Assembly: GCA_964471945.1 (NCBI GenBank)
Contig: CAYYIJ010000002.1
Location: 10,481-74,480 of the forward strand
Source of the DNA: an uncultured Chlorobiaceae bacterium
Lineage (GTDB): Bacteria; Bacteroidota; Ignavibacteria; UBA10030; SZUA-254
Reading direction: 5' to 3'
Length of the DNA stretch: 64,000 nucleotides
Each line of letters begins with the position of its first letter. Position 1 is the first letter of the stretch. The notes under the pieces are model-generated. The model did not search any database. It was not told the origin of the DNA and worked only from the letters and a program-made list of their open reading frames with translations. Shown here piece by piece: positions 3,258 to 13,050 of this stretch. Made by a program: the position numbers and the translations under genes.

Positions 3258-4205
3258 ATGACAACATTTTCAGATATAGAGCGAGCGTATGAAGCCTTAA
3301 AACTCGTTGTTCATAAAACACCTCTTTTATCATCGCGGTCTTTTAATGAACTTGCCACCAACGAAATTTATTTTAAAGCAGAAAACTTTCAGCGAGTTGG
3401 CGCATTTAAATTTCGCGGTGCATATAGCAAGATAGCTTCGCTAAGTGCCGAAGAAAGAAAGCGGGGTGTGATTGCACACTCATCTGGTAACCATGCTCAA
3501 GGTGTGGCGCTTGCGAGTAAAATCTTTGGTGTGAAAGCAGTTATCATAATGCCCCACAATTCCGTGGTCAGCAAAGTAGAAGCAACAAAAGGATATGGAT
3601 CGGAGGTCGTTTTTTGTGATGTATCAACGGACGAACGGGAAAAAACAACACAAGAGCTAATTAACAAACACGGCTACATGCTCATCCATCCTTACGATGA
3701 CGAAAAACTTATTGCTGGACAAGGAACGGTCGGATTGGAAATTTTTCAAGATATAAAAGAGCTTAATTATCTTTTTGTCCCTATTGGCGGCGGGGGCTTA
3801 ATCTCAGGATGTGCAATTGCCGCTAAGCATCTTTGTCCAAGCATTAAAGTAATAGGGGTTGAAACTGACGGTGCTAACGATTGTTATCAATCATTCCGAG
3901 CAAAGAAACTGATTAAACTTCGAGCAGCCAACACGATTGCAGATGGCATGAGAACTCTATCAGTTGGCAAGCTCAATTTCGAAATCATCATGAATTATGT
4001 TGATGATGTTATCACCATCAAAGATGAAGACATTTACCCAATGATAAAATTCTTTCTTGAGAGGATGAAAATTCTTGTCGAGCCGACTGGCGCCGTTGCT
4101 CCTGCCGCAGTAATGAAAAATGTTTTGGGATTAAAAGGAAAAAAAATTACCGCTGTTATTAGTGGTGGAAATGTTGATACTGATGTTCTTAAACAAATTC
4201 TTTAA
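3258..4205 (+). CDS. PLP-dependent threonine/serine dehydratase family enzyme (threonine ammonia-lyase / serine racemase-like).
   Basis: PLP lysine motif FKFRGAY, SGNHAQG, and a Gly-rich loop GGGGLISG; 315 aa. Confidence 0.8.
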   Translation: MTTFSDIERAYEALKLVVHKTPLLSSRSFNELATNEIYFKAENFQRVGAFKFRGAYSKIASLSAEERKRGVIAHSSGNHAQGVALASKIFGVKAVIIMPHNSVVSKVEATKGYGSEVVFCDVSTDEREKTTQELINKHGYMLIHPYDDEKLIAGQGTVGLEIFQDIKELNYLFVPIGGGGLISGCAIAAKHLCPSIKVIGVETDGANDCYQSFRAKKLIKLRAANTIADGMRTLSVGKLNFEIIMNYVDDVITIKDEDIYPMIKFFLERMKILVEPTGAVAPAAVMKNVLGLKGKKITAVISGGNVDTDVLKQIL

Positions 4206-4446
4206 TAATCACTTCCAATAAAATAATCGTGAAGAATCGACACATCTCCATTGCAAAAAACATAATACCCACAATGGGACGACGCGAATAATTTTAGTTG
4301 AGATAATTCAACAATAAGAGCGGTATCAGTTCGGTGTGATATTTTCACCAGAAAAATTATCTGATAAATTCTTTAGAATCGAGATGTTTCGCATCGCTCA
4401 ACATGACAAAAAAGAATAATTCAGAAGTCTTTATATTATTACTCTC

Positions 4447-5199
4447 ATGGATTTCTCAATAATAATCTTAATTTCGTTTATATTTTTTATTATCGCTTTG
4501 CTCTACTCTTCAGTGGGGCACGGCGGTGCATCTGGATATTTGGCGGTGTTATCCTTATTTACTTTTAAACCGGATGAAATGGCATCAACCGCGTTGCTCA
4601 TAAATGTAACAGTAGCCGGGATTGCGTTTTACTCTTATTATCGTTTAGGATATTTTTCTCCAAAACTTACATTACCGTTTTTGTTAACTTCAATTCCGCT
4701 CTCATTTATCGGCGGCATGCTGAATATCCCAAAATATTATTACAGTTTCTTGCTCGCCATGGCGCTTATTACCGCAGCACTTCGTTTAATGATTAAATTG
4801 GAATCTAAAACAATAGTCGAACCAACTTACAAACATACACGAATGGCAGTTGCACTACCTGTTGGTGGAGCGATTGGTTTTATCTCCGGAATTGTCGGGG
4901 TTGGTGGAGGAATATTCCTAAGTCCGATAATTCTTCTAATGAAATGGGCAAATCCAAAATTCACAGCCGCAACTTCGGCATTATTTATAGTGATGAATTC
5001 CATTTCAGGAATTGGTGGAAGGATTATAGATGACAGATTTTCAACAGGTAATTTTTTGCCTTTCATGGCTGCGGCGATAGTGGGCGGATTTGTCGGGTCG
5101 ATTTGGGGTGCGAAGAAATTTTTACATCAAACACTCAGAAGATTACTCGGAATTGTTCTATTAATTGCGGCAATAAAACTGTTGATTGCATCTCTGTAA
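4447..5199 (+). CDS. TauE/SafE family sulfite/anion exporter permease (DUF81).
   Basis: A 250-aa polytopic protein with the internally duplicated GxGGG motifs typical of TauE/SafE (GHGGASGY, GVGGGIF). Confidence 0.8.
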   Translation: MDFSIIILISFIFFIIALLYSSVGHGGASGYLAVLSLFTFKPDEMASTALLINVTVAGIAFYSYYRLGYFSPKLTLPFLLTSIPLSFIGGMLNIPKYYYSFLLAMALITAALRLMIKLESKTIVEPTYKHTRMAVALPVGGAIGFISGIVGVGGGIFLSPIILLMKWANPKFTAATSALFIVMNSISGIGGRIIDDRFSTGNFLPFMAAAIVGGFVGSIWGAKKFLHQTLRRLLGIVLLIAAIKLLIASL

Positions 5200-5410
5200 T
5201 TCAGTGCGCTTAGTGTTGACTTAATTCACAGCCGAGGCGAGGAGGAAACAAAGATAACTTCGAGAATTTTTAAATATTTTATCATGTTGCAAGTGAAGAA
5301 CATTTTTTTTACCTTTTTAAACAGAAATTTAATTAGACTTAGCACGAAACAATAAATTATTAATCAATAACGACTAATAACTCAAAACTCATAATTCATA
5401 ACTAAAATAT

Positions 5411-5775
5411 TAGCGTAGCTTCGGCTGCTGTCTTGGCTTGAAAACGTGGAAATTTTTATGCATGCAAGATGGAGCCAGCATACGCCCCGAAAGGGGCGTG
5501 GCTGGTGTATCCTTTGTGTGCGGGCATCCACGTGCCTCAAGTCAGAGGGTAATCGGTTTCACGCCCTTTGTATTTCTGTGGCACCCGTGTAGTAGACGGT
5601 CACCGACCGTCGTTCGTAGAATACCTTGTTCGCCGATCTGTTGATCGGCTACTACAGCCCGCCGCAAAGATTCAGCCAAACGTGGTAGCCGCACCCTTTA
5701 CGGGTGCGTGTCTCAGGAAACACAGAAATCCCGCTTTAAGTAGATAAACCCACGGCTCAAAAGTCTGCGGTTACT
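5411..5775. ncRNA. Candidate structured non-coding RNA; GC-rich, ORF-free element of unknown class.
   Basis: GC content is well above the flanks. Multiple perfect hairpins are visible: ACGCCCC-GAAA-GGGGCGT nested in CCAGC/GCTGG, GACGGTC/GACCGTC, GCCGATC-tgtt-GATCGGC, GCACCC-tttac-GGGTGC. A long-range pairing ATTTCTGTGGCACCCG / CGGGTGC...CACAGAAAT is also present. The only ORF here (5438..5644) has a junk-like product. Confidence 0.3.
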
Positions 5776-5793
5776 AAGAAAATTTGAAACACT

Positions 5794-5832
5794 TGATATT
5801 CTTAAAAATGTGTGGTATATTATATACCACAG
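5794..5832 (+). promoter_or_regulatory. Sigma-70-like promoter (TTGATA, 17-bp spacer, TATATT) overlapped by a perfect palindrome TGTGGTATAT|ATATACCACA; candidate operator for the downstream HTH repressor.
   Basis: Read directly from the sequence, 20-50 nt upstream of the HTH start codon. Confidence 0.4.
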
Positions 5833-5849
5833 TATAAGGAGTTACAAGT

Positions 5850-6212
5850 ATGACTTTTGGTGAATTTGTTAGAAAAAAACGTATTGAAGCCGAGCTTGGT
5901 CTTAGAGAGTTCTGTATAAAGGCAGAGGTAGACTCAAGTAACTGGAGCAAAATTGAACGTGGAATACTTCCTGCACCTTCGAACCGGGAGTTCCTTGAAT
6001 CGCTGGCTAAGTTGTTAAAATTGAAGAAAGGTGAAACAGATTGGTACATATTTTTTGATCTTGCTTCCCTTTCTCAACAAAAGATTCCGGACGATGTTTA
6101 TGAAGATAAAAATGTATTAGCCGCTCTTCCAGTATTTTTTAGAACAGTCCGGGGCGAAAAACCGACTGAAGAAGAATTAGATAATCTGATAACTCTTTTA
6201 AAGCAGAGGTAA
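5850..6212 (+). CDS. XRE-family helix-turn-helix transcriptional regulator (CapH/ImmR-like).
   Basis: N-terminal HTH_3-like segment (TFGEFVRKKRIEAELGLREFCIKAEVDSSNWSKIERG); 6 nt upstream of the peptidase gene. Confidence 0.75.
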   Translation: MTFGEFVRKKRIEAELGLREFCIKAEVDSSNWSKIERGILPAPSNREFLESLAKLLKLKKGETDWYIFFDLASLSQQKIPDDVYEDKNVLAALPVFFRTVRGEKPTEEELDNLITLLKQR

Positions 6213-6217
6213 AAAAA

Positions 6218-6829
6218 TTGGGAGCCGACATATCGGGATTACAAATACCGTTCCTTTGGGATGATGAGATACGGAAGAAGGCAGACGAATTCAGGAAAAA
6301 ATATTGGGGTGATAAAATTCCTATCGATGTTGAACTGATTGCCGAGAGAGATTTAAAAATTTTGATTATTCCGATTCCTGATCTCCGTTACAAAGCTCAT
6401 ACAGAAGCATATCTTTCAGGTGATCTAAAAGAAATTTCGTACGACCCCGCTGCTCCTGACATCAGAATTCGTTTTTCGATAGCACACGAAATCGGTCATT
6501 TCGCTCTTCATGCAAACATAATTCGACAACTCAGACCAAGTTCAATAGATGAATGGAAAGAAATTCAACGAGCTTTGCCCGATGTTTTTTGGGGACGCGC
6601 AGAATATCAGGCGCGGGAATTTGCTGGAAGACTGTTGGTTCCCCCTGAGTTGTTGATTCAGGCGTTGAGAGAATTACAACCCTTGATTGAAAAAGCAAAA
6701 GCCATTGCGCCGAATTTGGAAATACCTGTTATTAAAGAACTCGTTTCGCCGAAACTTGCAAAGAAGTTTTTCATATCAGATGAAGTAATAGTGCGACGGA
6801 TGGATGCTGAGGGAATTCAGATAAAGTGA
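6218..6829 (+). CDS. ImmA/IrrE-family zinc metallopeptidase (M78, DUF955; CapP-like).
   Basis: HExxH motif in IAHEIGHFALH plus a downstream Glu; the typical partner of an XRE HTH. Confidence 0.75.
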   Translation: MGADISGLQIPFLWDDEIRKKADEFRKKYWGDKIPIDVELIAERDLKILIIPIPDLRYKAHTEAYLSGDLKEISYDPAAPDIRIRFSIAHEIGHFALHANIIRQLRPSSIDEWKEIQRALPDVFWGRAEYQAREFAGRLLVPPELLIQALRELQPLIEKAKAIAPNLEIPVIKELVSPKLAKKFFISDEVIVRRMDAEGIQIK

Positions 6830-6838
6830 AATGACCAG

Positions 6839-8050
6839 ATGTCAGAGATGAAAGAAAGAAATATGATATTTATCAGCCACGCTTGGGAAGACTTTGAATT
6901 TACAAAGTGGCTTGCATTACAATTAGCCAAAGAAGGTTTTGGCGTTTGGTGTGATTTGACAAAATTACTTGGGGGAGAAAATTGGCCAAGAGAAATAAAT
7001 GAAGCATTGCAAAGAAGAACATGTAAATTTCTATTTGTTCTTTCGAGATCATCAAATACAAAACCCGATCCTCTTGGCGAACTTGAAACTGCAAGAAAGA
7101 TAATGAGGCGAGAAAATATCAGCAATTTCATTGTACCTCTTAAGATAGATAGTATCGTTCGGGATCAAGTTGATTATAGACTTCAAGAAATTCAAAGCCT
7201 CTCATTTGAATCCGGTTGGGCAAAAGGTCTGTCGGATTTGTTAAAGATGTTAAATGAACAAGGAATTCCCAAGAATCTTTCATTCAATCCTCAAGCTGTC
7301 AACGAATGGTGGAAAAGATACGGTACGGAGTCAAGAAAGATTCTTGAAACGCCAGAAAACCTTTCTTCAAATAGATTTTCGATACATCACTACCCTACAA
7401 CAATTTTTGCTCACTTTGTGGATGAGAAACCTCGGATAATATCTAGAATTATTGAATCAATTCCCCTTTCAACATTAGATATTATACATGGCGAAGATGA
7501 GCTTATAGAAAACTCAAAGACAGGTCTCTATTACTTAACAAGACTTTCAAATCAGACATTTGAAAAAGGGATGGTTAATAAAGGACTTCGAAGTTTCACC
7601 CTCGCAAAATCAAAAGGTTGCTGCTACTATTTCCACGAAGAATTACTTAATAATGGAAGGATAAAATACAGAAATAGTGGTGAGCTGGATCCGAGAATAA
7701 AATTGTGGGGAAAATTTGGGACTGAGAAATGGTACTGGGCTTTGCGAGTACGATTTATGATGGAGCCACAACTTCATTATTTGGTACAATCTCATGTATT
7801 GGTTCAAAATAAAAAAGGGTTCAGTCCTGCACCAAAAGGAGTTTACAAATCGTGGAGGAATGACAAATGGAGAGATAAGTTAAAGGCATCAATGGTACAC
7901 CTAGCAGAAGACAATTCAGATATAAGATTTGGACTCGGAGCAAATAATAATCTAACAATTTCAAAGGAATCCACTTTATACACCTGCCCAGTAAGTTACG
8001 AAGAACCAGCAGAACAATCGGAAATAGAGGACGCAGATACTGATGGCTGA
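6839..8050 (+). CDS. TIR-APAZ protein of a short-pAgo (SPARTA-type) system.
   Basis: N-terminal TIR-like domain (MIFISHAWEDFEF...GFGVWCD...FLFVLSRSS...GELE) followed by a roughly 260-aa APAZ-like region. An 8-nt overlap (ATGGCTGA) with the downstream Argonaute gene indicates translational coupling. Confidence 0.7.
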   Translation: MSEMKERNMIFISHAWEDFEFTKWLALQLAKEGFGVWCDLTKLLGGENWPREINEALQRRTCKFLFVLSRSSNTKPDPLGELETARKIMRRENISNFIVPLKIDSIVRDQVDYRLQEIQSLSFESGWAKGLSDLLKMLNEQGIPKNLSFNPQAVNEWWKRYGTESRKILETPENLSSNRFSIHHYPTTIFAHFVDEKPRIISRIIESIPLSTLDIIHGEDELIENSKTGLYYLTRLSNQTFEKGMVNKGLRSFTLAKSKGCCYYFHEELLNNGRIKYRNSGELDPRIKLWGKFGTEKWYWALRVRFMMEPQLHYLVQSHVLVQNKKGFSPAPKGVYKSWRNDKWRDKLKASMVHLAEDNSDIRFGLGANNNLTISKESTLYTCPVSYEEPAEQSEIEDADTDG

Positions 8051-9578
8051 GCTAATCAAACTCGAAGAACCTGAATTAATATTTGGACACAACCAGGCTT
8101 TGGAAGATCCAAGAGATGGTTTATCATTATTTGGCCCGCTTAAAGAAAATTCTCCCTTTGGAATCAATTATGGTCTAATTGGAACTGAAGCAGGTATCAA
8201 TAGATTCTACAGATGGCTAAAAACCACTAAGAGTTTGCTTGCTCATAATGAAGTTTCTAAAAGAATACTTTGGATACCATTCCCAGGTTTTGAAGAAATA
8301 TTCAGAATTCCATTTGCTGACGAAGCAATCACAACAAAAATCGTCGATGCCGAAATACTTAAACAAATATTAAAAGACGATGATGCTTTTCAAAGAGTTT
8401 ACAAAGCAGTTGACCTTTTTGAAGAACCAATTAGAGAGTTTTACAAGAGAGCTGATGAAGGAATCAACATTTGGTTTGCAATATCACCAGAATCAGTATT
8501 TAAAGAATGCAGACCTAAGTCTACTATAGATGATCCACTGAAAATAGTGAGCAGGGATGCAATAAAGAAAAGAAAGGAAATAGCGAAGCTAACAAGAGGT
8601 GGACAAGAATTTATTTTTAACGGACAAGAACAGGACTACTTCGCATATAATTTCGATAATGATTTTCGTCGCCAGCTTAAAGCTCGTTTGATTCTTAATA
8701 ATATTAAAGATCCTGTACAGATTATTAGAGAATCTACATTGACACAACAAGACTTCTTAGATAAATGGGGAAATCCTGAACGAGATCTTGAACCTGATTC
8801 TCAAGTCGCATGGAATTTGCTCTCAGCAATTTTTTACAAAGCAGGTGGAAAACCCTGGAAACTTAAGGGAATCAGAGAAGGTGTTTGTTATCTTGGTATG
8901 GTATTTAAAAAATTAGAGGGCGAAACGGATAAACGATCAGCATGTTGTGCGGCTCAAATGTTTCTCGATTCGGGAGATGGGGTGGTGTTTAAAGGAGCTG
9001 TAGGTCCCTGGAAATCACCCGAAGGCGAGGATTATCATCTTGATTACAATGCTGCAAAAGAAATAATTCATAGAGCTGTTGCTGCTTATAAAGATTTATT
9101 TGGAAACAACACTAATCCAAAAGAAATATTCCTACATGGTAGAACTTATTTGAACGAGGAAGAATGGCGAGGTTTTTCAAATATCGCACAGAGTGGAATC
9201 AAGATCGTTGGGATTAGAATCAGGCAAGGCAATTTCAAATTATTCCGTTCAGGGAGATTTCCAGTTCTGCGTGAAATGGCATTAATTGAAAATTATAAGA
9301 AAGGATATTTGTGGAGTACGGGTTTTATACCTAAACTAAAAACCTATCCTTATCAAGGTATTCCCTACCCGTTAGAGATTGATATTTGCAAGGGTGATTC
9401 TGATTTGTTAACAATAATGAAAGATATTTTGGCCCTTACTAAATTGAATTATAATAGTTGTCACTTTGCAGATGCTGTGCCAATCACCTTACAGTTTGCT
9501 CAAAAGATCGGAGATATATTAACGGCAGGTCCAATTGAAAAGGATACTGCCCCATTACCTTTCAAGTTTTATATCTAA
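8043..9578 (+). CDS. Short prokaryotic Argonaute (MID-PIWI, catalytically inactive).
   Basis: PIWI signature YKAGGKPWKL. No Asp at the RNase H catalytic positions. Length of 511 aa matches MID+PIWI-only pAgos. Confidence 0.75.
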   Translation: MAELIKLEEPELIFGHNQALEDPRDGLSLFGPLKENSPFGINYGLIGTEAGINRFYRWLKTTKSLLAHNEVSKRILWIPFPGFEEIFRIPFADEAITTKIVDAEILKQILKDDDAFQRVYKAVDLFEEPIREFYKRADEGINIWFAISPESVFKECRPKSTIDDPLKIVSRDAIKKRKEIAKLTRGGQEFIFNGQEQDYFAYNFDNDFRRQLKARLILNNIKDPVQIIRESTLTQQDFLDKWGNPERDLEPDSQVAWNLLSAIFYKAGGKPWKLKGIREGVCYLGMVFKKLEGETDKRSACCAAQMFLDSGDGVVFKGAVGPWKSPEGEDYHLDYNAAKEIIHRAVAAYKDLFGNNTNPKEIFLHGRTYLNEEEWRGFSNIAQSGIKIVGIRIRQGNFKLFRSGRFPVLREMALIENYKKGYLWSTGFIPKLKTYPYQGIPYPLEIDICKGDSDLLTIMKDILALTKLNYNSCHFADAVPITLQFAQKIGDILTAGPIEKDTAPLPFKFYI

Positions 9579-9809
9579 TCATTTAGTAAACAAAAATTGT
9601 TCTATTTATATCTTCAAAGAATATGTAAGTTTTTCCTTGAGAATTGGTATACCAAAGGATTCTAAAAACAAATCAATCTTGAAACAAGATACTATCTTCA
9701 ATTTTCATTTTTGAAAATCAACGTCTAAAATCTTTCCAGTTTTTCATCTTTTCAACCAAAATCTAACATTTATCTCTGGCATAATAATTGATATTTATAA
9801 ATACCAATT

Positions 9810-10271
9810 ATGAGAGAAGAAACTGCAGAAAACGTAGCAAACGAAGAAATTCCACTCTATACCATCAGCACAGCAGCGAAGTTGTTGGGTATTTCTGTTC
9901 ACACTTTGAGGATGTATGAGCGTGCCGGACTTATATTGCCATTCCAAAAAGAATCAAGTCATCGTCTTTACTCTCAATCGGATATCGAAAGGTTGCGTTG
10001 TATTCGAAAGGCAATTAACGAAGATAAAATCGGAATAGCAGGCATTCAACGTATCCATGCTTTAATACCTTGCTGGGAAATTCTTCCTTGCACCCAAAAA
10101 GATCGGGAACATTGCAATGCTTTTAAAAGTCACCAAGTGGGATGCTGGACATATAATCACAAAAATAATGTATGTGAAAAAAAGGATTGTAGGTTGTGCA
10201 AAGTGTATAAAAAAGCTATGGATTGCAATAGCATAAAGAATAGTATCATCACAGCAACAAATAAAAATTAG
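9810..10271 (+). CDS. MerR-family transcriptional regulator with a Cys-rich C-terminal sensor tail.
   Basis: MerR HTH (YTISTAAKLLGISVHTLRMYERAGLI). The last ~70 aa contain 9 Cys (PCWEILPC...HCNAF...GCW...VCEKKDCRLCK...DC). Confidence 0.7.
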   Translation: MREETAENVANEEIPLYTISTAAKLLGISVHTLRMYERAGLILPFQKESSHRLYSQSDIERLRCIRKAINEDKIGIAGIQRIHALIPCWEILPCTQKDREHCNAFKSHQVGCWTYNHKNNVCEKKDCRLCKVYKKAMDCNSIKNSIITATNKN

Positions 10272-10295
10272 GAAACCAAAATCTCAAAAAGAATT

Positions 10296-11525
10296 ATGAA
10301 AAAACTACTCATACTTGGCGCCGGAACAGCCGGCACGATGATGTTGAACAAATTCAGCGGCGCACTCGATAAACATGAATGGCAGATAACGATCGTCGAT
10401 CAGCATGAAACACACTACTACCAACCCGGATTTTTATTTATCCCGTTCGATATTTACACGAAGAAAGATGTCATAAAACCGAAAAGAGATTTCTTTCCCG
10501 CAAGTACAAACGTTGTGGTATCCGAAATTCAAAAGATCGAGCCAGAAAACAATCGCGTTCTTCTTGCTAACAACGCTGTACTGCCATACGATTACCTGAT
10601 AATTGCAACCGGTGCAAAAATTAATCCCGATCAAACCGAAGGAATGACTGGCGAATTGTGGCGGAAAAATATATTCGACTTTTATACCATCGAAGGGGCT
10701 TGTGCTCTGCGGGAATTTTTCAAACGCTGGCAGGGCGGCAAGCTCGTTATCAACATAACCGAAATGCCGATTAAGTGTCCGGTAGCACCTCTCGAGTTTG
10801 CATTCCTTGCCGATTGGTATTTTACGGAAAAAGGAATCAGGAATAATGTCGATATTCATTTCGTCACTCCACTTCCAGGTGCATTTACAAAACCGCGGGC
10901 ATCGGCGATACTCGGCGACTTCCTTGATAAAAAGAATATCCATCAAACCACCGAGTTCAACATTGCTCGGGTCGATAATGAAACTAAAAAAATAGTTTCC
11001 TGGGATGAAAATGAAATTCCGTTTGACGTCCTCGTAACCATCCCGACGAATATGGGCGACGAGGTTATCGCTAGAAGCGGTATGGGAGATGAATTGAATT
11101 TCGTTCCGACCGACAAAGAGACACTCCGGGCAAAGAATCATGACAATATCTTTGTCATCGGCGATGCGACCGATTTACCAAGCTCGAAGGCAGGTTCAGT
11201 TGCTCACTTCCAATCAGATATTTTGTTCGAGAATTTTATGAATATCATCGATGGCAGAGAGCCGCAGGAAAAATTCGACGGGCACGCTAACTGTTTCATC
11301 GAATCGGGTTTTGGAAAAGGTATACTGATCGACTTCAATTACGATACCGAACCGCTGCCCGGCAAATTTCCGCTGCCCGGTGTCGGACCATTCTCTCTTC
11401 TTGAAGAAACAAAGATGAATCATTACGGCAAGATTATGTTCAGGTGGATGTATTGGAATTTCCTGTTAAAGGGATTAGAACTGCCCATCGAATCCAACAT
11501 GTCAATGGCTGGTAAGAGGTTATAA
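10296..11525 (+). CDS. FAD-dependent pyridine nucleotide-disulfide oxidoreductase, sulfide:quinone oxidoreductase-like.
   Basis: N-terminal GAGTAG dinucleotide-binding motif; ~410 aa. Genomic context with DUF1641, DsrC/TusE and DsrE-like genes. Confidence 0.65.
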   Translation: MKKLLILGAGTAGTMMLNKFSGALDKHEWQITIVDQHETHYYQPGFLFIPFDIYTKKDVIKPKRDFFPASTNVVVSEIQKIEPENNRVLLANNAVLPYDYLIIATGAKINPDQTEGMTGELWRKNIFDFYTIEGACALREFFKRWQGGKLVINITEMPIKCPVAPLEFAFLADWYFTEKGIRNNVDIHFVTPLPGAFTKPRASAILGDFLDKKNIHQTTEFNIARVDNETKKIVSWDENEIPFDVLVTIPTNMGDEVIARSGMGDELNFVPTDKETLRAKNHDNIFVIGDATDLPSSKAGSVAHFQSDILFENFMNIIDGREPQEKFDGHANCFIESGFGKGILIDFNYDTEPLPGKFPLPGVGPFSLLEETKMNHYGKIMFRWMYWNFLLKGLELPIESNMSMAGKRL

Positions 11526-11526
11526 A

Positions 11527-12198
11527 ATGAATGAAGAAAGTTTACAGCTTAAAATCGATGTAATCAATATGAAATTAGATTTAATTCTTGAAGAGATAGA
11601 CCTCCAAAAGCGTCATCGTCGCGAGATGGATGACTTGAAAGACGATCTTATGCGCGTTGGCAAAGACGTTTATCAAACAGCGGTTGTAGAATTAGAGGAT
11701 GTGCATGATTATCTGAACACGGGCGATGTTTTATTTTTGGGAAAGAAAATCCTTCGCAATGTTGGAACGCTGACAAAAACATTCGAACAGCTCGAAAGCA
11801 TCAGAGATTTTCTTCAAGATGCAGCTCCGTTGGCGCGAGAATCGTTTATAGACTTTATGAATAAATTAGACGAGTTCGACCGTAAAGGTTACTTTACCTT
11901 CATGAAAGAATTGGGGAAAGTCGCAGATAGAGTTGTAACATCCTTCACGCCTGAAGATGTGAAGCATCTCGGTGATAATATCGTCACGATTATCAACACA
12001 GTTAAAAGTCTGACTCAACCGGATATGCTTCATACAATCAACAACGCGCTTTCTGTTTATAAGAGAATGGATATCGAAGTGAAAGAAGATGTTTCTCTTC
12101 TTTCGCTTTTAAAAGAACTGAACACGCCAGAAGCAAAACGCGGCTTGGCTTTCGCAATAAGATTTTTGAAAAGCTTGGTAAATCCAATAAAAGAATAA
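11527..12198 (+). CDS. DUF1641-family protein, a common partner of SQR / type-II NADH dehydrogenase genes.
   Basis: A 223-aa helical protein immediately downstream of the flavoprotein; identified by gene-context pattern. Confidence 0.5.
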   Translation: MNEESLQLKIDVINMKLDLILEEIDLQKRHRREMDDLKDDLMRVGKDVYQTAVVELEDVHDYLNTGDVLFLGKKILRNVGTLTKTFEQLESIRDFLQDAAPLARESFIDFMNKLDEFDRKGYFTFMKELGKVADRVVTSFTPEDVKHLGDNIVTIINTVKSLTQPDMLHTINNALSVYKRMDIEVKEDVSLLSLLKELNTPEAKRGLAFAIRFLKSLVNPIKE

Positions 12199-12214
12199 AA
12201 TAAAAGGAGATTAT

Positions 12215-12532
12215 ATGGCAACAAAAGTAATAGCAGGAAAAACAATCGAGTTTGATGCAGATGGACATCTGGCAAAACGCTCGGATTGGAACGAAGAGAC
12301 GGCAAAAGAGTTGGCAAAGGAGGAAGGGATCGATAATCTAACAGATCGTCACTGGCTTGTCATCAAATATATGCAAAAGGAATTCAATGAAAAAGGCGAC
12401 GCACCATCAATCAGAAAATTAACAAAGGAAAGCGGTGTCGATACAAAAGAGTTATACGCACTGTTTCCGAAAGGACCTGCAAAAAAGGCGGCGAAGATAG
12501 CAGGTCTTCCAAAACCAAAAGGTTGTATTTAA
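12215..12532 (+). CDS. TusE/DsrC-family sulfur relay protein.
   Basis: 105 aa with the conserved C-terminal arm ...PKPKGCI (penultimate Cys), typical of DsrC/TusE. A good SD sequence (AAAGGAG) precedes it. Confidence 0.7.
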   Translation: MATKVIAGKTIEFDADGHLAKRSDWNEETAKELAKEEGIDNLTDRHWLVIKYMQKEFNEKGDAPSIRKLTKESGVDTKELYALFPKGPAKKAAKIAGLPKPKGCI

Positions 12533-12549
12533 CATAAGGAGAAAAAGTT

Positions 12550-13050
12550 ATGAATGACATTTATGAACCAATAAAAAAAGTTTCAATCGTTGTATCCAGA
12601 GGCTCGCTCGAAGGAGTTTATCCGGGATTGATAATGGCAAACGGTGCAAGGATGGAAGGAATTGAAGCAACACTCTTTTTTACCTTCTTCGGCTTGCATG
12701 CAATCATCAATAAAAAAATGGATAAGATTAAAGTCGCTACGGTTGGAAATCCAGCAATGTGTGTTCCCTCGGCAATGGGACCCGGGCTTCCGACGTGGAT
12801 GGGTGCAATTCCAGGCATGTCGTGGTTTGCAACCGGAATGATGAAAAAAGAAATAGAGAAACTCGATATACCTCCGATAAGGGAATTTATCGAAATGATC
12901 CATGATGCCGGCTGTGAGATTTATGGATGTAAAGCAACGGTCGATATGTTCCATCTGACGAAAGAAGATTTTTGTCCGCAAGTTGATGATATCATATCGG
13001 TCGGTCAGTTTTATGAAAAATCTGCTGGGGCGCAGATCATCTTTACCTGA
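12550..13050 (+). CDS. DsrE/DsrF-like family protein.
   Basis: A ~165-aa DsrE-like fold with conserved Cys; SD sequence AAGGAG upstream; sulfur-cluster context. Confidence 0.5.
   Translation: MNDIYEPIKKVSIVVSRGSLEGVYPGLIMANGARMEGIEATLFFTFFGLHAIINKKMDKIKVATVGNPAMCVPSAMGPGLPTWMGAIPGMSWFATGMMKKEIEKLDIPPIREFIEMIHDAGCEIYGCKATVDMFHLTKEDFCPQVDDIISVGQFYEKSAGAQIIFT

What the first reader, a model, noticed from the sequence alone, without database searches (positions are those of the whole stretch)
5850..6829. CapH/CapP-like HTH + ImmA/IrrE metallopeptidase pair placed co-directionally in front of the SPARTA genes
An XRE-type HTH gene (120 aa) and an M78/ImmA-IrrE zinc peptidase gene (HEIGH motif, 203 aa) sit 6 nt apart. 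The peptidase gene ends only 10 nt before the TIR-APAZ gene. Such HTH-protease pairs are known as DNA-damage-responsive switches: ImmR/ImmA on ICEBs1, and CapH/CapP on CBASS and other defence operons. Here the pair appears fused into the same transcriptional unit as a short-pAgo system, which suggests SPARTA expression is gated by a stress-cleavable repressor. A perfect 20-bp palindrome, TGTGGTATAT|ATATACCACA, overlaps the -10 of the promoter in front of the HTH gene at about 5806-5832. It is a textbook autoregulatory operator.
Basis: partly seen in the sequence, partly recalled or inferred. Interest (0 to 1): 0.7.

Follow-up and report, generated by a model that had tools for sequence, protein, structure and literature searches.

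The report
Repressor-protease switch fused onto SPARTA operon
A small DNA-binding repressor gene and a zinc-protease gene, with their own promoter and repressor-binding site, are joined directly in front of a SPARTA (short Argonaute) immune system; the same portable cassette precedes many other immune systems in distant bacteria, so this SPARTA copy is probably kept off until the protease cuts the repressor.

Summary
The window carries:
- an XRE-type HTH gene (5850-6212, 120 aa);
- 5 nt later, an M78 peptidase gene (6218-6829, 203 aa, HEIGH motif);
- 9 nt later, TIR-APAZ (6839-8050);
- short pAgo (8043-9578), overlapping TIR-APAZ by 8 nt.

The palindrome is 21 bp, TGTGGTATAT-T-ATATACCACA (5811-5831), not a perfect 20-mer. 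It covers the -10 of the promoter TTGATA-17-TATATT.

Comparison with 165 related loci shows a conserved portable cassette of promoter, operator, HTH and M78.
- The HTH gene lies directly upstream of the M78 gene in 164 of 167 loci.
- The core GTGGTA-N6/7-TACCAC sits on the -10 in 103 of 140 distinct upstream regions and in none of the control stretches.
- What follows co-directionally differs between loci: SPARTA, a DUF4365-APAZ short pAgo, a CBASS cyclase, OLD/Gabija-like ATPases, NACHT/STAND proteins, restriction-modification genes.
- None of the 7 nearest SPARTA loci has the pair.

The HTH keeps an invariant FFR in the first C-terminal helix, as at the mapped CapH cleavage site. The peptidase lacks the GAF domain and cysteine switch of CapP, and the pair is co-directional with its cargo, as in ImmR-ImmA-int. 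So this is not a canonical CapH/CapP pair. It is a new variant of a known kind of regulator, and its inducing signal is unknown.

The parts
5793..5821 (+). Sigma-70-type promoter: -35 TTGATA (5793-5798), 17-nt spacer, -10 TATATT (5816-5821), with TG at 5813-5814 as an extended -10.
   Evidence: Best promoter match in 5200-10400, 10 of 12 positions plus the TG. The same TTGACA-17-TATATT layout occurs in the closest relatives L086, L087, L090 and L083. DNA similarity to family loci begins here, at 5792-5844.
5811..5831 (.). Operator: 21-bp palindrome TGTGGTATAT-T-ATATACCACA covering the -10 and the expected transcription start.
   Evidence: Read directly; the only such palindrome in 64 kb. The core GTGGTA-N6/7-TACCAC is exact in 76 of 140 homologous upstream regions, has at most one mismatch in 103 of 140, and occurs in 0 control stretches; median position is -42 from the HTH start. 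The window holds only this one site.
5836..5841 (+). Shine-Dalgarno AAGGAG, 8 nt before the HTH ATG.
   Evidence: Read from the sequence.
5850..6212 (+). XRE-family HTH repressor, 120 aa. It has an N-terminal five-helix HTH domain and two C-terminal helices (87-100 and 107-119). The invariant F97-R98 (FFR, nt 6135-6143) is the predicted cleavage site.
   Evidence: Pfam HTH_31 at 8e-7. AF2 model with pLDDT 89. Foldseek hits to SinR, DdrO, CapH NTD 7t5u and the phi106 repressor. Family conservation of LP-FFRT-RG-KPT.
6218..6829 (+). ImmA/IrrE-type M78 zinc peptidase, 203 aa, TTG start. HEIGH is residues 90-94 (nt 6485-6499), and E129 is the likely third zinc ligand. It has no GAF domain and no cysteine.
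   Evidence: Pfam Peptidase_M78 at 3e-12. PADLOC capP at 6e-15, covering only profile positions 3-136 of 242. Invariant H90, E91, H94 and near-invariant E129. AF2 model with pLDDT 92, a small sheet plus helices. Foldseek hits to IrrE/PprI and CapP. Alignment to CapP 7t5t.
6839..8050 (+). TIR-APAZ (SPARTA), 403 aa. It starts 9 nt after the M78 stop and carries a 30-aa internal deletion relative to its relatives.
   Evidence: Pfam TIR_2 at 3e-19. PADLOC Aga_TIR-PNTD1-PNTD2 at 3.5e-80. Matches to solved SPARTA TIR-APAZ chains. Deletion shown.
8043..9578 (+). Short pAgo (MID-PIWI), 511 aa, overlapping TIR-APAZ by 8 nt.
   Evidence: PADLOC pAgo_I at 4.7e-179, full length. 80% identical to the pAgo of L168.

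Best explanation
One promoter at 5793-5821 drives a four-gene operon: HTH, M78 peptidase, TIR-APAZ and short pAgo.

Proposed mechanism:
1. The HTH protein dimerises through its two C-terminal helices.
2. The dimer binds the 21-bp palindrome that covers the -10 and the transcription start, so it blocks RNA polymerase. This holds the whole operon, including its own gene and SPARTA, at a low self-limited level.
3. On an activating signal, the M78 peptidase cuts the repressor in the first C-terminal helix at the invariant FF|R (F97/R98).
4. Cutting destroys dimerisation and DNA binding, and the operon fires as a pulse of SPARTA.
5. When protease activity falls, newly made repressor shuts the promoter again.

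The promoter, operator, HTH and M78 form a portable cassette. It has been recombined at the very 3' end of the M78 gene onto many different immune systems, and SPARTA is the cargo here.

Shown here: gene identities, layout, operator conservation, variable cargo, the catalytic residues, the FFR motif, and the absence of a GAF domain.

Inferred: DNA binding, cleavage, co-transcription and inducibility.

The signal is unknown. The ssDNA-binding groove of CapP/IrrE lies between the peptidase and GAF domains, and this protein has no GAF domain. It may work like the GAF-less ImmA.
For: Layout:
- Gaps of 5 nt and 9 nt and an 8-nt overlap.
- No promoter-like or terminator-like site on the + strand between 5822 and 6838.

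Operator:
- Unique in the window.
- Conserved at the -10 in 103 of 140 relatives against 0 controls.
- Present in nearly all cargo-bearing loci, about 30 nt before the HTH start.

The pair as a unit:
- The HTH gene is directly upstream of M78 in 164 of 167 loci, with gaps of -19 to +17 nt.
- The M78 family has 732 clusters at 50% identity with E <= 1e-30, nearly all 195-220 aa.

Protease:
- HExxH plus Glu are conserved.
- The fold matches IrrE and CapP.

Repressor:
- Xre HTH domain plus two C-terminal helices.
- Invariant F97-R98 in the first of these helices. CapH is cut between F82 and R83 in the first helix of its C-terminal domain, with F81 in the dimer core (Lau 2022 preprint).

Cargo:
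- Co-directional immune genes follow within about 50 nt in many loci. They include DUF4365-APAZ plus pAgo, a CD-NTase, OLD/GajA/AriA-like ATPases, NACHT/STAND proteins, type IIG, type I and type III R-M genes, helicases, and PDC-M30A.

Junction and SPARTA relatives:
- Homology among relatives ends in the last ~5 codons of M78.
- SPARTA relatives have their own 158-235-nt upstream regions and no HTH, M78 or operator.
Against: - Nothing here measures transcription, DNA binding or cleavage.
- About 57% of family loci with enough flanking DNA have no co-directional ORF near the M78 stop (58 of 135 do). Some downstream neighbours are housekeeping genes (SelA, a sulfatase, TyrRS). The pair can therefore exist without cargo and must have a function of its own.
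- The peptidase lacks the GAF domain and cysteine switch through which CapP is known to be controlled (2026 CapP preprint). How, or whether, it is switched is open.
- The promoter scan covers only sigma-70 consensus sequences. An atypical internal promoter in the M78 gene cannot be excluded.
- The TIR-APAZ here has a unique 30-aa deletion, so this SPARTA copy may not be fully functional.
Confidence: 0.6

Rival explanations
1. The HTH is only an autorepressor that buffers expression. It holds a horizontally moving, potentially toxic operon at a fixed low level in any host. The M78 peptidase has another substrate, for example a phage or plasmid protein or a cargo component, so there is no induced cleavage of the repressor.
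For: The operator sits on the cassette's own promoter, and the cassette carries a near-consensus sigma-70 promoter across phyla, which suits host-independent expression. The peptidase has no recognisable sensor domain.
Against: The HTH and M78 genes are inseparable in 164 of 167 loci. The HTH keeps an invariant FFR in the position where CapH is cut. In every characterised HTH/M78 pair the protease cuts its partner repressor (Lau 2022 preprint; PMC10233336).
Confidence: 0.15
2. The pair is a self-standing toxin-antitoxin-like or abortive-infection module of the Xre-COG2856 / RosmerTA kind. It lies next to SPARTA as a separate defence or addiction unit and does not regulate SPARTA.
For: Xre-COG2856 pairs were predicted to be TA systems and are abundant in genomes and mobile elements (PMC3632139; PMC8649781). 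PADLOC RmrA profiles hit the peptidase part at 2e-9. Many family loci have no cargo.
Against: RmrA is a fused protein of about 380 aa paired with a toxin gene, and only the peptidase core matches here. For an ImmR/ImmA pair annotated as a TA system, the protease was not toxic and the data rejected the TA model (PMC10233336). A gap of 9 nt or less, or an overlap, to varied immune cargo with no room for a promoter points to operon fusion.
Confidence: 0.12
3. The pair is the remnant of a prophage or ICE immunity region (ImmR/ImmA). It lies beside SPARTA by chance, and SPARTA is expressed from its own promoter.
For: The gene order HTH then GAF-less M78 is that of immR-immA. PHROG phrog_87 (phage metallo-protease) matches at 2.5e-15.
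Against: There are no integrase, phage or conjugation genes nearby; the neighbours are sulfur-metabolism genes. The HTH has no match in 50,697 phage or 72,556 plasmid records at E <= 1e-8. The same cassette recurs before many unrelated immune genes. Only 9 nt precede the TIR-APAZ start codon.
Confidence: 0.05

Closest known systems
CapH/CapP (CBASS-associated HTH repressor and ssDNA-activated metallopeptidase; Lau et al. 2022; Calloji et al. 2026 preprint)
   Same: - An Xre HTH repressor with a two-helix C-terminal dimerisation region and an FF-R motif in its first helix.
- An M78 peptidase with HExxH plus a Glu ligand; CapP 7t5t is the only PDB sequence hit.
- Association with varied immune operons, including a CBASS cyclase in L032.
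   Different: - The peptidase is 203 aa and lacks the GAF domain (CapP is 288 aa: peptidase, HTH and GAF domains). It also has no cysteine-switch cysteine.
- The pair is co-directional with its cargo and fused to it. Lau et al. report that all their cases lie on the opposite strand.
- The operator lies on the -10, whereas the CapH site is upstream of the -35.
- ssDNA sensing cannot be assumed.
ImmR/ImmA of ICEBs1 and phage phi105-type repressor/anti-repressor pairs
   Same: - The repressor gene is followed by a short GAF-less M78 protease gene in one operon.
- In ICEBs1 a further gene (int) follows in the same transcript (my own knowledge, not tested here).
- The repressor is inactivated by cleavage in its C-terminal part.
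- The phi106 repressor 9sf2 is the only full-length PDB sequence match to the HTH profile (E 8e-4).
   Different: - The pair is not in an ICE or prophage, and no integrase or transfer genes are nearby.
- The downstream genes are immune effectors.
- The HTH has no sequence match in phage or plasmid collections.
DdrO/IrrE (PprI) of Deinococcus
   Same: IrrE gives the best structural matches to the M78 model (8sln, 3dti; TM 0.58-0.59 on the query). DdrO appears among the HTH fold matches. It uses the same logic: a protease cuts the repressor's dimerisation domain.
   Different: IrrE has a GAF domain and binds ssDNA in the peptidase-GAF groove. It controls a chromosomal DNA-repair regulon through a different motif and is not a cassette with cargo.
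RosmerTA / Xre-COG2856 predicted toxin-antitoxin pairs
   Same: An HTH and an M78 peptidase next to variable partner genes in defence contexts; PADLOC RmrA hits on the peptidase core.
   Different: RmrA is one fused protein paired with a small toxin. Here there are two separate proteins with a conserved operator, and the cargo consists of whole immune systems.
SPARTA (short pAgo clade S2A; Koopal et al. 2022)
   Same: A TIR-APAZ plus short pAgo gene pair with overlapping genes; the TIR catalytic Glu is present.
   Different: Koopal et al. found the APAZ protein to be the only conserved neighbour, whereas here a regulator pair is fused upstream. TIR-APAZ lacks 30 aa that all close relatives have.

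Membership tests
CapH/CapP | Repressor with an N-terminal Xre HTH domain and a C-terminal two-helix dimerisation domain | tested here: met
   AF2 model with pLDDT 89: helices 3-76 form the HTH domain, followed by H87-100 and H107-119. CapH NTD 7t5u matches with TM 0.77 on the target.
CapH/CapP | Cleavage site Phe|Arg in the first helix of the C-terminal domain | tested here: inconclusive
   An FFR motif (F96, F97, R98) lies in H87-100, and F97 and R98 are invariant in 40 relatives. This matches the F81, F82|R83 description for CapH. Cleavage itself cannot be tested here.
CapH/CapP | Peptidase with HExxH, a downstream Glu zinc ligand and an M78 fold | tested here: met
   H90, E91 and H94 are invariant and E129 is at least 90% conserved. 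E129 aligns to the CapP motif. Foldseek matches CapP and IrrE.
CapH/CapP | C-terminal GAF domain forming the ssDNA groove with the peptidase domain | tested here: not met
   The protein is 203 aa. The PADLOC capP profile is covered only at positions 3-136 of 242. In the AF2 model, residues 143-197 are four helices with no beta-sheet domain. Family members are 195-220 aa.
CapH/CapP | Cysteine-switch loop (present in many but not all CapP proteins) | tested here: not met
   The protein contains no cysteine.
CapH/CapP | Pair encoded upstream of the regulated operon and on the opposite strand | tested here: not met
   Here the pair is on the same strand, 9 nt before the cargo. The same holds in cargo-bearing relatives.
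CapH/CapP | Peptidase activated by single-stranded DNA or DNA damage | not testable with these tools
   This needs biochemistry or reporter assays.
ImmR/ImmA | Repressor gene followed by a short single-module M78 anti-repressor gene in one operon | tested here: met
   5-nt gap, same strand. The HTH and M78 genes are adjacent in 164 of 167 loci.
ImmR/ImmA | Resides in, and controls, an ICE or prophage (integrase, excision or transfer genes) | tested here: not met
   The neighbours are TauE, a PALP enzyme, MerR and a Pyr_redox_2 (SQR-like) oxidoreductase, followed by DsrC and DsrE genes. There are no hits in the phage or plasmid collections.
Xre-COG2856 TA / RosmerTA | Antitoxin with fused HTH and Zn-peptidase domains, paired with a toxin gene | tested here: not met
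   The HTH and peptidase are separate proteins. RmrA profiles (363-400 positions) match only the peptidase core. The downstream genes are SPARTA.
SPARTA (short pAgo S2A) | TIR-APAZ gene plus short MID-PIWI pAgo gene in one operon | tested here: met
   PADLOC scores of 3.5e-80 and 4.7e-179. 8-nt overlap. Matches to solved SPARTA chains.
SPARTA (short pAgo S2A) | Intact TIR catalytic Glu and full-length APAZ | tested here: inconclusive
   The Glu is present (E81, aligned). About 30 aa at the start of APAZ are missing relative to the aligned 431-aa relative P0122; the other close relatives are also 431-432 aa. About 44 residues of chain 8j8h_B have no counterpart.

The most novel reading that the evidence does not exclude
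The pair defines a previously undescribed, pan-bacterial 'plug-in' expression switch. It is a self-contained cassette of promoter, operator, repressor and GAF-less protease, and the operator half-sites (GTGGTA/TACCAC) are kept across more than 15 phyla. The cassette is recombined at the last codons of the protease gene onto unrelated immune systems: SPARTA, a DUF4365-APAZ short pAgo, CBASS, Gabija/OLD-like systems, NACHT proteins and R-M systems. Its protease senses something other than ssDNA, for example an invader-encoded trigger. That would make SPARTA, so far treated as constitutively expressed, an inducible system here.
Probability: 0.3. Interest if true: 0.7.

Novelty: new variant of a known kind. 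Interest (0 to 1): 0.52.

Why it matters
SPARTA and other short-pAgo systems have been studied only under artificial promoters. Their only conserved neighbour was reported to be the APAZ partner (Koopal 2022), and no paper in the searched library links CapH/CapP to Argonautes. This locus, together with the DUF4365-APAZ/pAgo locus L126, gives natural examples of a short-pAgo system wired to a dedicated repressor-protease switch. That makes it possible to test whether NAD-depleting Argonaute immunity is transcriptionally gated.

More broadly, the cassette is compact, found across many phyla, and has one conserved operator and interchangeable cargo. It is a convenient model for how immune operons acquire regulation by recombination. 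It also raises the question of how a GAF-less M78 protease is switched on, which is still unresolved for ImmA. Finally, the cassette could be a useful flag for unknown immune genes, such as the 816-aa protein in L083, the 499-aa protein in L085 and the 342-aa protein in L019.

Tried and rejected
- **Rfam and tRNA/tmRNA scans of 4000-11000 and of the upstream gap.** They found nothing, so there is no tRNA-type integration site.
- **Search for the HTH in plasmid and phage collections.** No match.
- **C-terminal 43 aa of the HTH against PDB sequences.** Only chance EF-hand/calmodulin matches came up (E >= 0.08), so a direct sequence alignment to the CapH C-terminal domain was not obtained. The FFR parallel rests on the paper's text.
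- **NCBIfam.** No curated family exists for the HTH or the M78 peptidase; there is only a far sub-threshold spr1629 hit.
- **blastn of the 650-nt upstream gap against all fetched loci.** Only the promoter/operator region (5792-5844) is shared, so the structured region 5480-5710 is not part of the cassette. One exact-pattern scan of viral contigs for that region found nothing.
- **Idea that SPARTA loci in general carry the pair.** Rejected: 0 of 7 nearest SPARTA loci have it, and only 1 further pAgo locus appears among 165 M78-family loci.
- **Idea that the pair is always followed by cargo.** Rejected: 58 of 135 loci have a close co-directional ORF, and some of those are housekeeping genes.
- **Organism name.** It could not be recovered; the exact proteins carry no source name.
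Full report
**1. What is in the sequence**

Four co-directional ORFs are packed together on the + strand:

| ORF | Coordinates | Length | Start |
|---|---|---|---|
| HTH | 5850-6212 | 120 aa | ATG |
| M78 peptidase | 6218-6829 | 203 aa | TTG |
| TIR-APAZ | 6839-8050 | 403 aa | ATG |
| short pAgo | 8043-9578 | 511 aa | ATG |

Family assignments:
- The first is an XRE-type HTH (Pfam HTH_31, 8e-7).
- The second is Peptidase_M78 (3e-12). HEIGH is at residues 90-94.
- The third and fourth are a SPARTA pair. PADLOC gives Aga_TIR-PNTD1-PNTD2 at 3.5e-80 and pAgo_I at 4.7e-179. TIR-APAZ also matches solved SPARTA chains.

The gaps are 5 nt, 9 nt and an 8-nt overlap.

Upstream lies the best sigma-70-type promoter match of the region, TTGATA-17-TATATT with an extended-10 TG, at 5793-5821. 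An AAGGAG ribosome-binding site lies 8 nt before the ATG.

The palindrome is 21 bp, TGTGGTATAT-T-ATATACCACA, at 5811-5831. It is the only palindrome of that quality in the 64 kb, where 0.52 are expected by chance. No promoter-like or terminator-like site lies on the + strand between the HTH promoter and the TIR-APAZ start.

**2. The pair is a conserved, portable cassette**

The peptidase belongs to a tight family of proteins about 205 aa long.
- A word-indexed search found 167 relatives.
- A profile search of 1.84 billion representatives found 732 clusters at E <= 1e-30, nearly all 195-220 aa.

I fetched 80 genomic and 80 metagenomic loci with an alignment of the family (A1), plus loci for the closest relatives. 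Findings:
- In 164 of 167 loci a homologue of the 120-aa HTH lies immediately upstream of the peptidase. The gaps are -19 to +17 nt.
- The hosts span Ignavibacteria, Bacteroidota, Verrucomicrobiota, Nitrospirota, Thermodesulfobacteriota, Acidobacteriota, Chloroflexota, Spirochaetota, Patescibacteria, Actinomycetota and others.
- The HTH is more conserved than the peptidase.

**3. The palindrome is a real operator**

In the relatives, the region about 30-45 nt before the HTH start carries the same core, GTGGTA-N6/7-TACCAC.
- It is exact in 76 of 140 distinct upstream regions.
- It has at most one mismatch in 103 of 140.
- It occurs in none of the control stretches taken from the same loci.

The core always overlaps the -10 of a TTGACA-type promoter. 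A distant clade carries two tandem copies. The only DNA similarity between the window's 650-nt upstream gap and any family locus is 5792-5844, which is the promoter plus operator. The cassette therefore starts at the -35. The window contains no second operator.

**4. What follows the cassette varies, and is often an immune system**

The closest relatives of the pair precede different genes.

| Locus | Relation to the window | Downstream, co-directional | Gap |
|---|---|---|---|
| L083 | M78 84% identical | 816-aa protein of unknown family | 20 nt |
| L085 | M78 78% identical | 41-aa ORF, then a 1487-aa PD-(D/E)xK-NACHT protein and a 499-aa protein | - |
| L087 | M78 75% identical | OLD/GajA/AriA-like ATPase | 8 nt |

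More distant members precede:
- a DUF4365-APAZ protein plus short pAgo (L126: M78 35% identical, exact operator at -32);
- a CBASS CD-NTase (L032);
- AriA-like, OLD and KAP ATPases (L063, L023, L066);
- a STAND ATPase (L061);
- a UvrD/GajB-like helicase (L028) and ResIII helicase-nucleases (L021, L145);
- type IIG, type I and type III R-M genes (L076, L115, L005, L046, L066);
- a LmuA-like protein (L026) and PDC-M30A (L132).

The pair is not always followed by cargo. Of 135 loci with at least 500 nt downstream, 58 have a co-directional ORF starting within -60 to +150 nt of the M78 stop. Some of these are housekeeping neighbours such as SelA, a sulfatase and TyrRS.

Among close relatives, DNA homology ends in the last ~5 codons of the peptidase gene. 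The window ends in ...GIQIK, whereas most of the family ends in ...GISPIQE. That is where the cargo is joined.

**5. From the SPARTA side the link is rare**

The seven nearest SPARTA loci have TIR-APAZ 44-65% identical and pAgo up to 80% identical to the window's. None has an HTH, an M78 peptidase or the operator. The three closest of these keep 158-235 nt of their own upstream DNA; the four further loci are. In the window only 9 nt precede the TIR-APAZ ATG. The native upstream region has therefore been replaced by the cassette. This is the strongest sequence-level argument that SPARTA here depends on the HTH promoter.

**6. What the two proteins look like**

The peptidase model is confident (pLDDT 92). 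It shows a small sheet plus helices and no second beta-rich domain.
- Its best PDB fold matches are IrrE/PprI (8sln, 3dti), CapP (7t5t) and the M. tuberculosis transcriptional regulator 6cz6.
- By sequence profile, the only PDB hit is CapP (1e-6), over the HExxH...E region.
- H90, E91 and H94 are invariant, and E129 is at least 90% conserved, so it should be an active enzyme.
- It has no cysteine.
- It covers only positions 3-136 of the 242-position PADLOC capP profile.

CapP is 288 aa, with peptidase (1-141), HTH (142-182) and GAF (182-288) domains. It binds ssDNA in the groove between the peptidase and GAF domains and uses a cysteine-switch loop (2026 preprint). Those control elements are absent here.

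The HTH model (pLDDT 89) has a five-helix Xre domain followed by helices 87-100 and 107-119. Its fold matches include SinR, DdrO, the CapH N-terminal domain and the phi106 repressor. The C-terminal motif LP-FFRT-RG-KPT is the most conserved part outside the DNA-binding helices, and F97 and R98 are invariant. CapH is cleaved between F82 and R83 in the first helix of its two-helix dimerisation domain, with F81 in the dimer core. The window protein has F96-F97-R98 in the equivalent helix. This parallel is suggestive and has not been tested.

**7. Most likely mechanism**

1. The HTH dimer sits on the operator across the -10 and the start site.
2. It represses the four-gene operon, including its own gene.
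3. The peptidase, once activated, cuts the repressor at FF|R, and the operon fires.
4. New repressor resets the promoter.

My confidence in each step:

| Step | Confidence |
|---|---|
| Autorepression and operon fusion | ~0.8 |
| Cleavage of the HTH by the M78 peptidase | ~0.65 |
| A DNA-damage or ssDNA trigger | ~0.3 (the known sensor parts are missing) |

The layout of repressor, GAF-less protease and downstream gene in one transcript is closer to immR-immA-int of ICEBs1 than to CapH/CapP. The ICEBs1 layout is from my own knowledge. Lau et al. describe CapH/CapP pairs as always divergent from their operon.

**8. Rivals**

- **Pure dosage-buffering autorepressor, with the protease acting on another substrate (0.15).** This fits the lack of a sensor domain. 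It does not explain the strict HTH-M78 linkage or the FFR motif.
- **Self-standing TA-like or RosmerTA-like module (0.12).** This fits the older Xre-COG2856 prediction and the loci without cargo. However, the RmrA match covers only the peptidase core. An ImmR/ImmA pair annotated as a TA system was shown not to behave as one.
- **Prophage or ICE remnant lying next to SPARTA by chance (0.05).** There are no mobile-element genes nearby, no hits in phage or plasmid collections, and the same cassette recurs before many immune genes.

**9. Novelty**

Repressor/M78-protease switches are known: ImmR/ImmA, DdrO/IrrE and CapH/CapP. CapH/CapP-like pairs were already linked to several immune systems. The following are not in the searched literature:
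- this clade, which is GAF-less, co-directional, and has an operator conserved across phyla on the -10;
- its linkage to short-pAgo systems. No paper holds CapH, CapP and Argonaute together, and Koopal et al. list APAZ as the only conserved neighbour.

I rate it a new variant of a known kind and of moderate interest.

**10. Caveats**

- No expression or biochemical data exist for this locus.
- The promoter and terminator scans are simple consensus scans.
- The cargo survey is a sample: 30 downstream proteins were annotated from loci chosen for having a large nearby ORF. It is not a census.
- TIR-APAZ here has a 30-aa deletion that no close relative shares, so this SPARTA copy may be impaired.

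Noticed in passing
window 5480-5710: A GC-rich, strongly structured stretch lies in the 650-nt gap between TauE and the HTH promoter. The RNA fold z-score is -5.07 on the + strand and -3.84 on the - strand. It has no Rfam family and no copy in any fetched locus or in viral contigs. It is not part of the conserved cassette and may be an undescribed structured RNA.
   Followed up: partly
window about 7433 (TIR-APAZ residue ~199): TIR-APAZ is 403 aa, whereas its closest relatives are 431-432 aa. About 30 residues at the start of the APAZ part are missing in frame. Residues 226-269 of CrtSPARTA chain 8j8h_B have no counterpart. The catalytic Glu is kept. This SPARTA copy may be impaired.
   Followed up: partly
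window 5404 (start of L001 and L002): Two independent Logan assemblies of the same locus (SRR11582139 and SRR11582140) both break at the same base, 446 nt upstream of the HTH gene. This suggests an assembly-graph branch, that is, strain variation or a repeat to the left of the cassette.
   Followed up: no
window 3258-5199 and 9810-13050: The SPARTA cassette is not in a defence island. It sits alone among sulfur-metabolism genes: a PALP enzyme (cysteine-synthase-like), TauE, MerR, a Pyr_redox_2 (SQR-like) oxidoreductase, DsrC and DsrE.
   Followed up: no
window 9784-9811: A 28-bp near-palindrome (ATAATTGATATTTATAAATACCAATTAT; 16-nt arms, 94% complementary) runs up to and into the MerR start codon (9810-9812). 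It is probably the MerR operator.
   Followed up: no
L126 7630-11529: A second, independent short-pAgo system lies behind the same cassette: HTH, M78 (35% identical, exact operator at -32), DUF4365(REase)-APAZ (477 aa, overlapping the M78 stop by 16 nt) and a short pAgo (495 aa, 27% identical to the window's).
   Followed up: yes
L085 1078-7155; L083 6748-9198; L019 8032-9060: Proteins with no family match lie directly behind the cassette: a 41-aa ORF and a 499-aa protein flanking a NACHT protein (L085), an 816-aa protein (L083), and a 342-aa protein (L019). They are candidate unknown immune genes.
   Followed up: partly
L010, L013, L023, L027, L036, L056 (upstream of the HTH gene): A distant clade of the cassette has two tandem operators (GTGGTA-N7-TACCAC followed directly by a second copy). 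It also has a shorter distance from the -35 to the operator, which places the -10 in the operator centre.
   Followed up: partly
P0339 (HTH relative): An HTH 53% identical to the window's is annotated from a Lokiarchaeota MAG, so the cassette may cross the bacteria/archaea boundary, or the bin may be contaminated.
   Followed up: no
window 6170-6212 (HTH residues 102-115): The HTH C-terminus GEKPTEEELDNLI resembles the calmodulin EF-hand flank GEKLTDEEVDEMI. The match is weak (E >= 0.08) and I judge it to be chance.
   Followed up: yes
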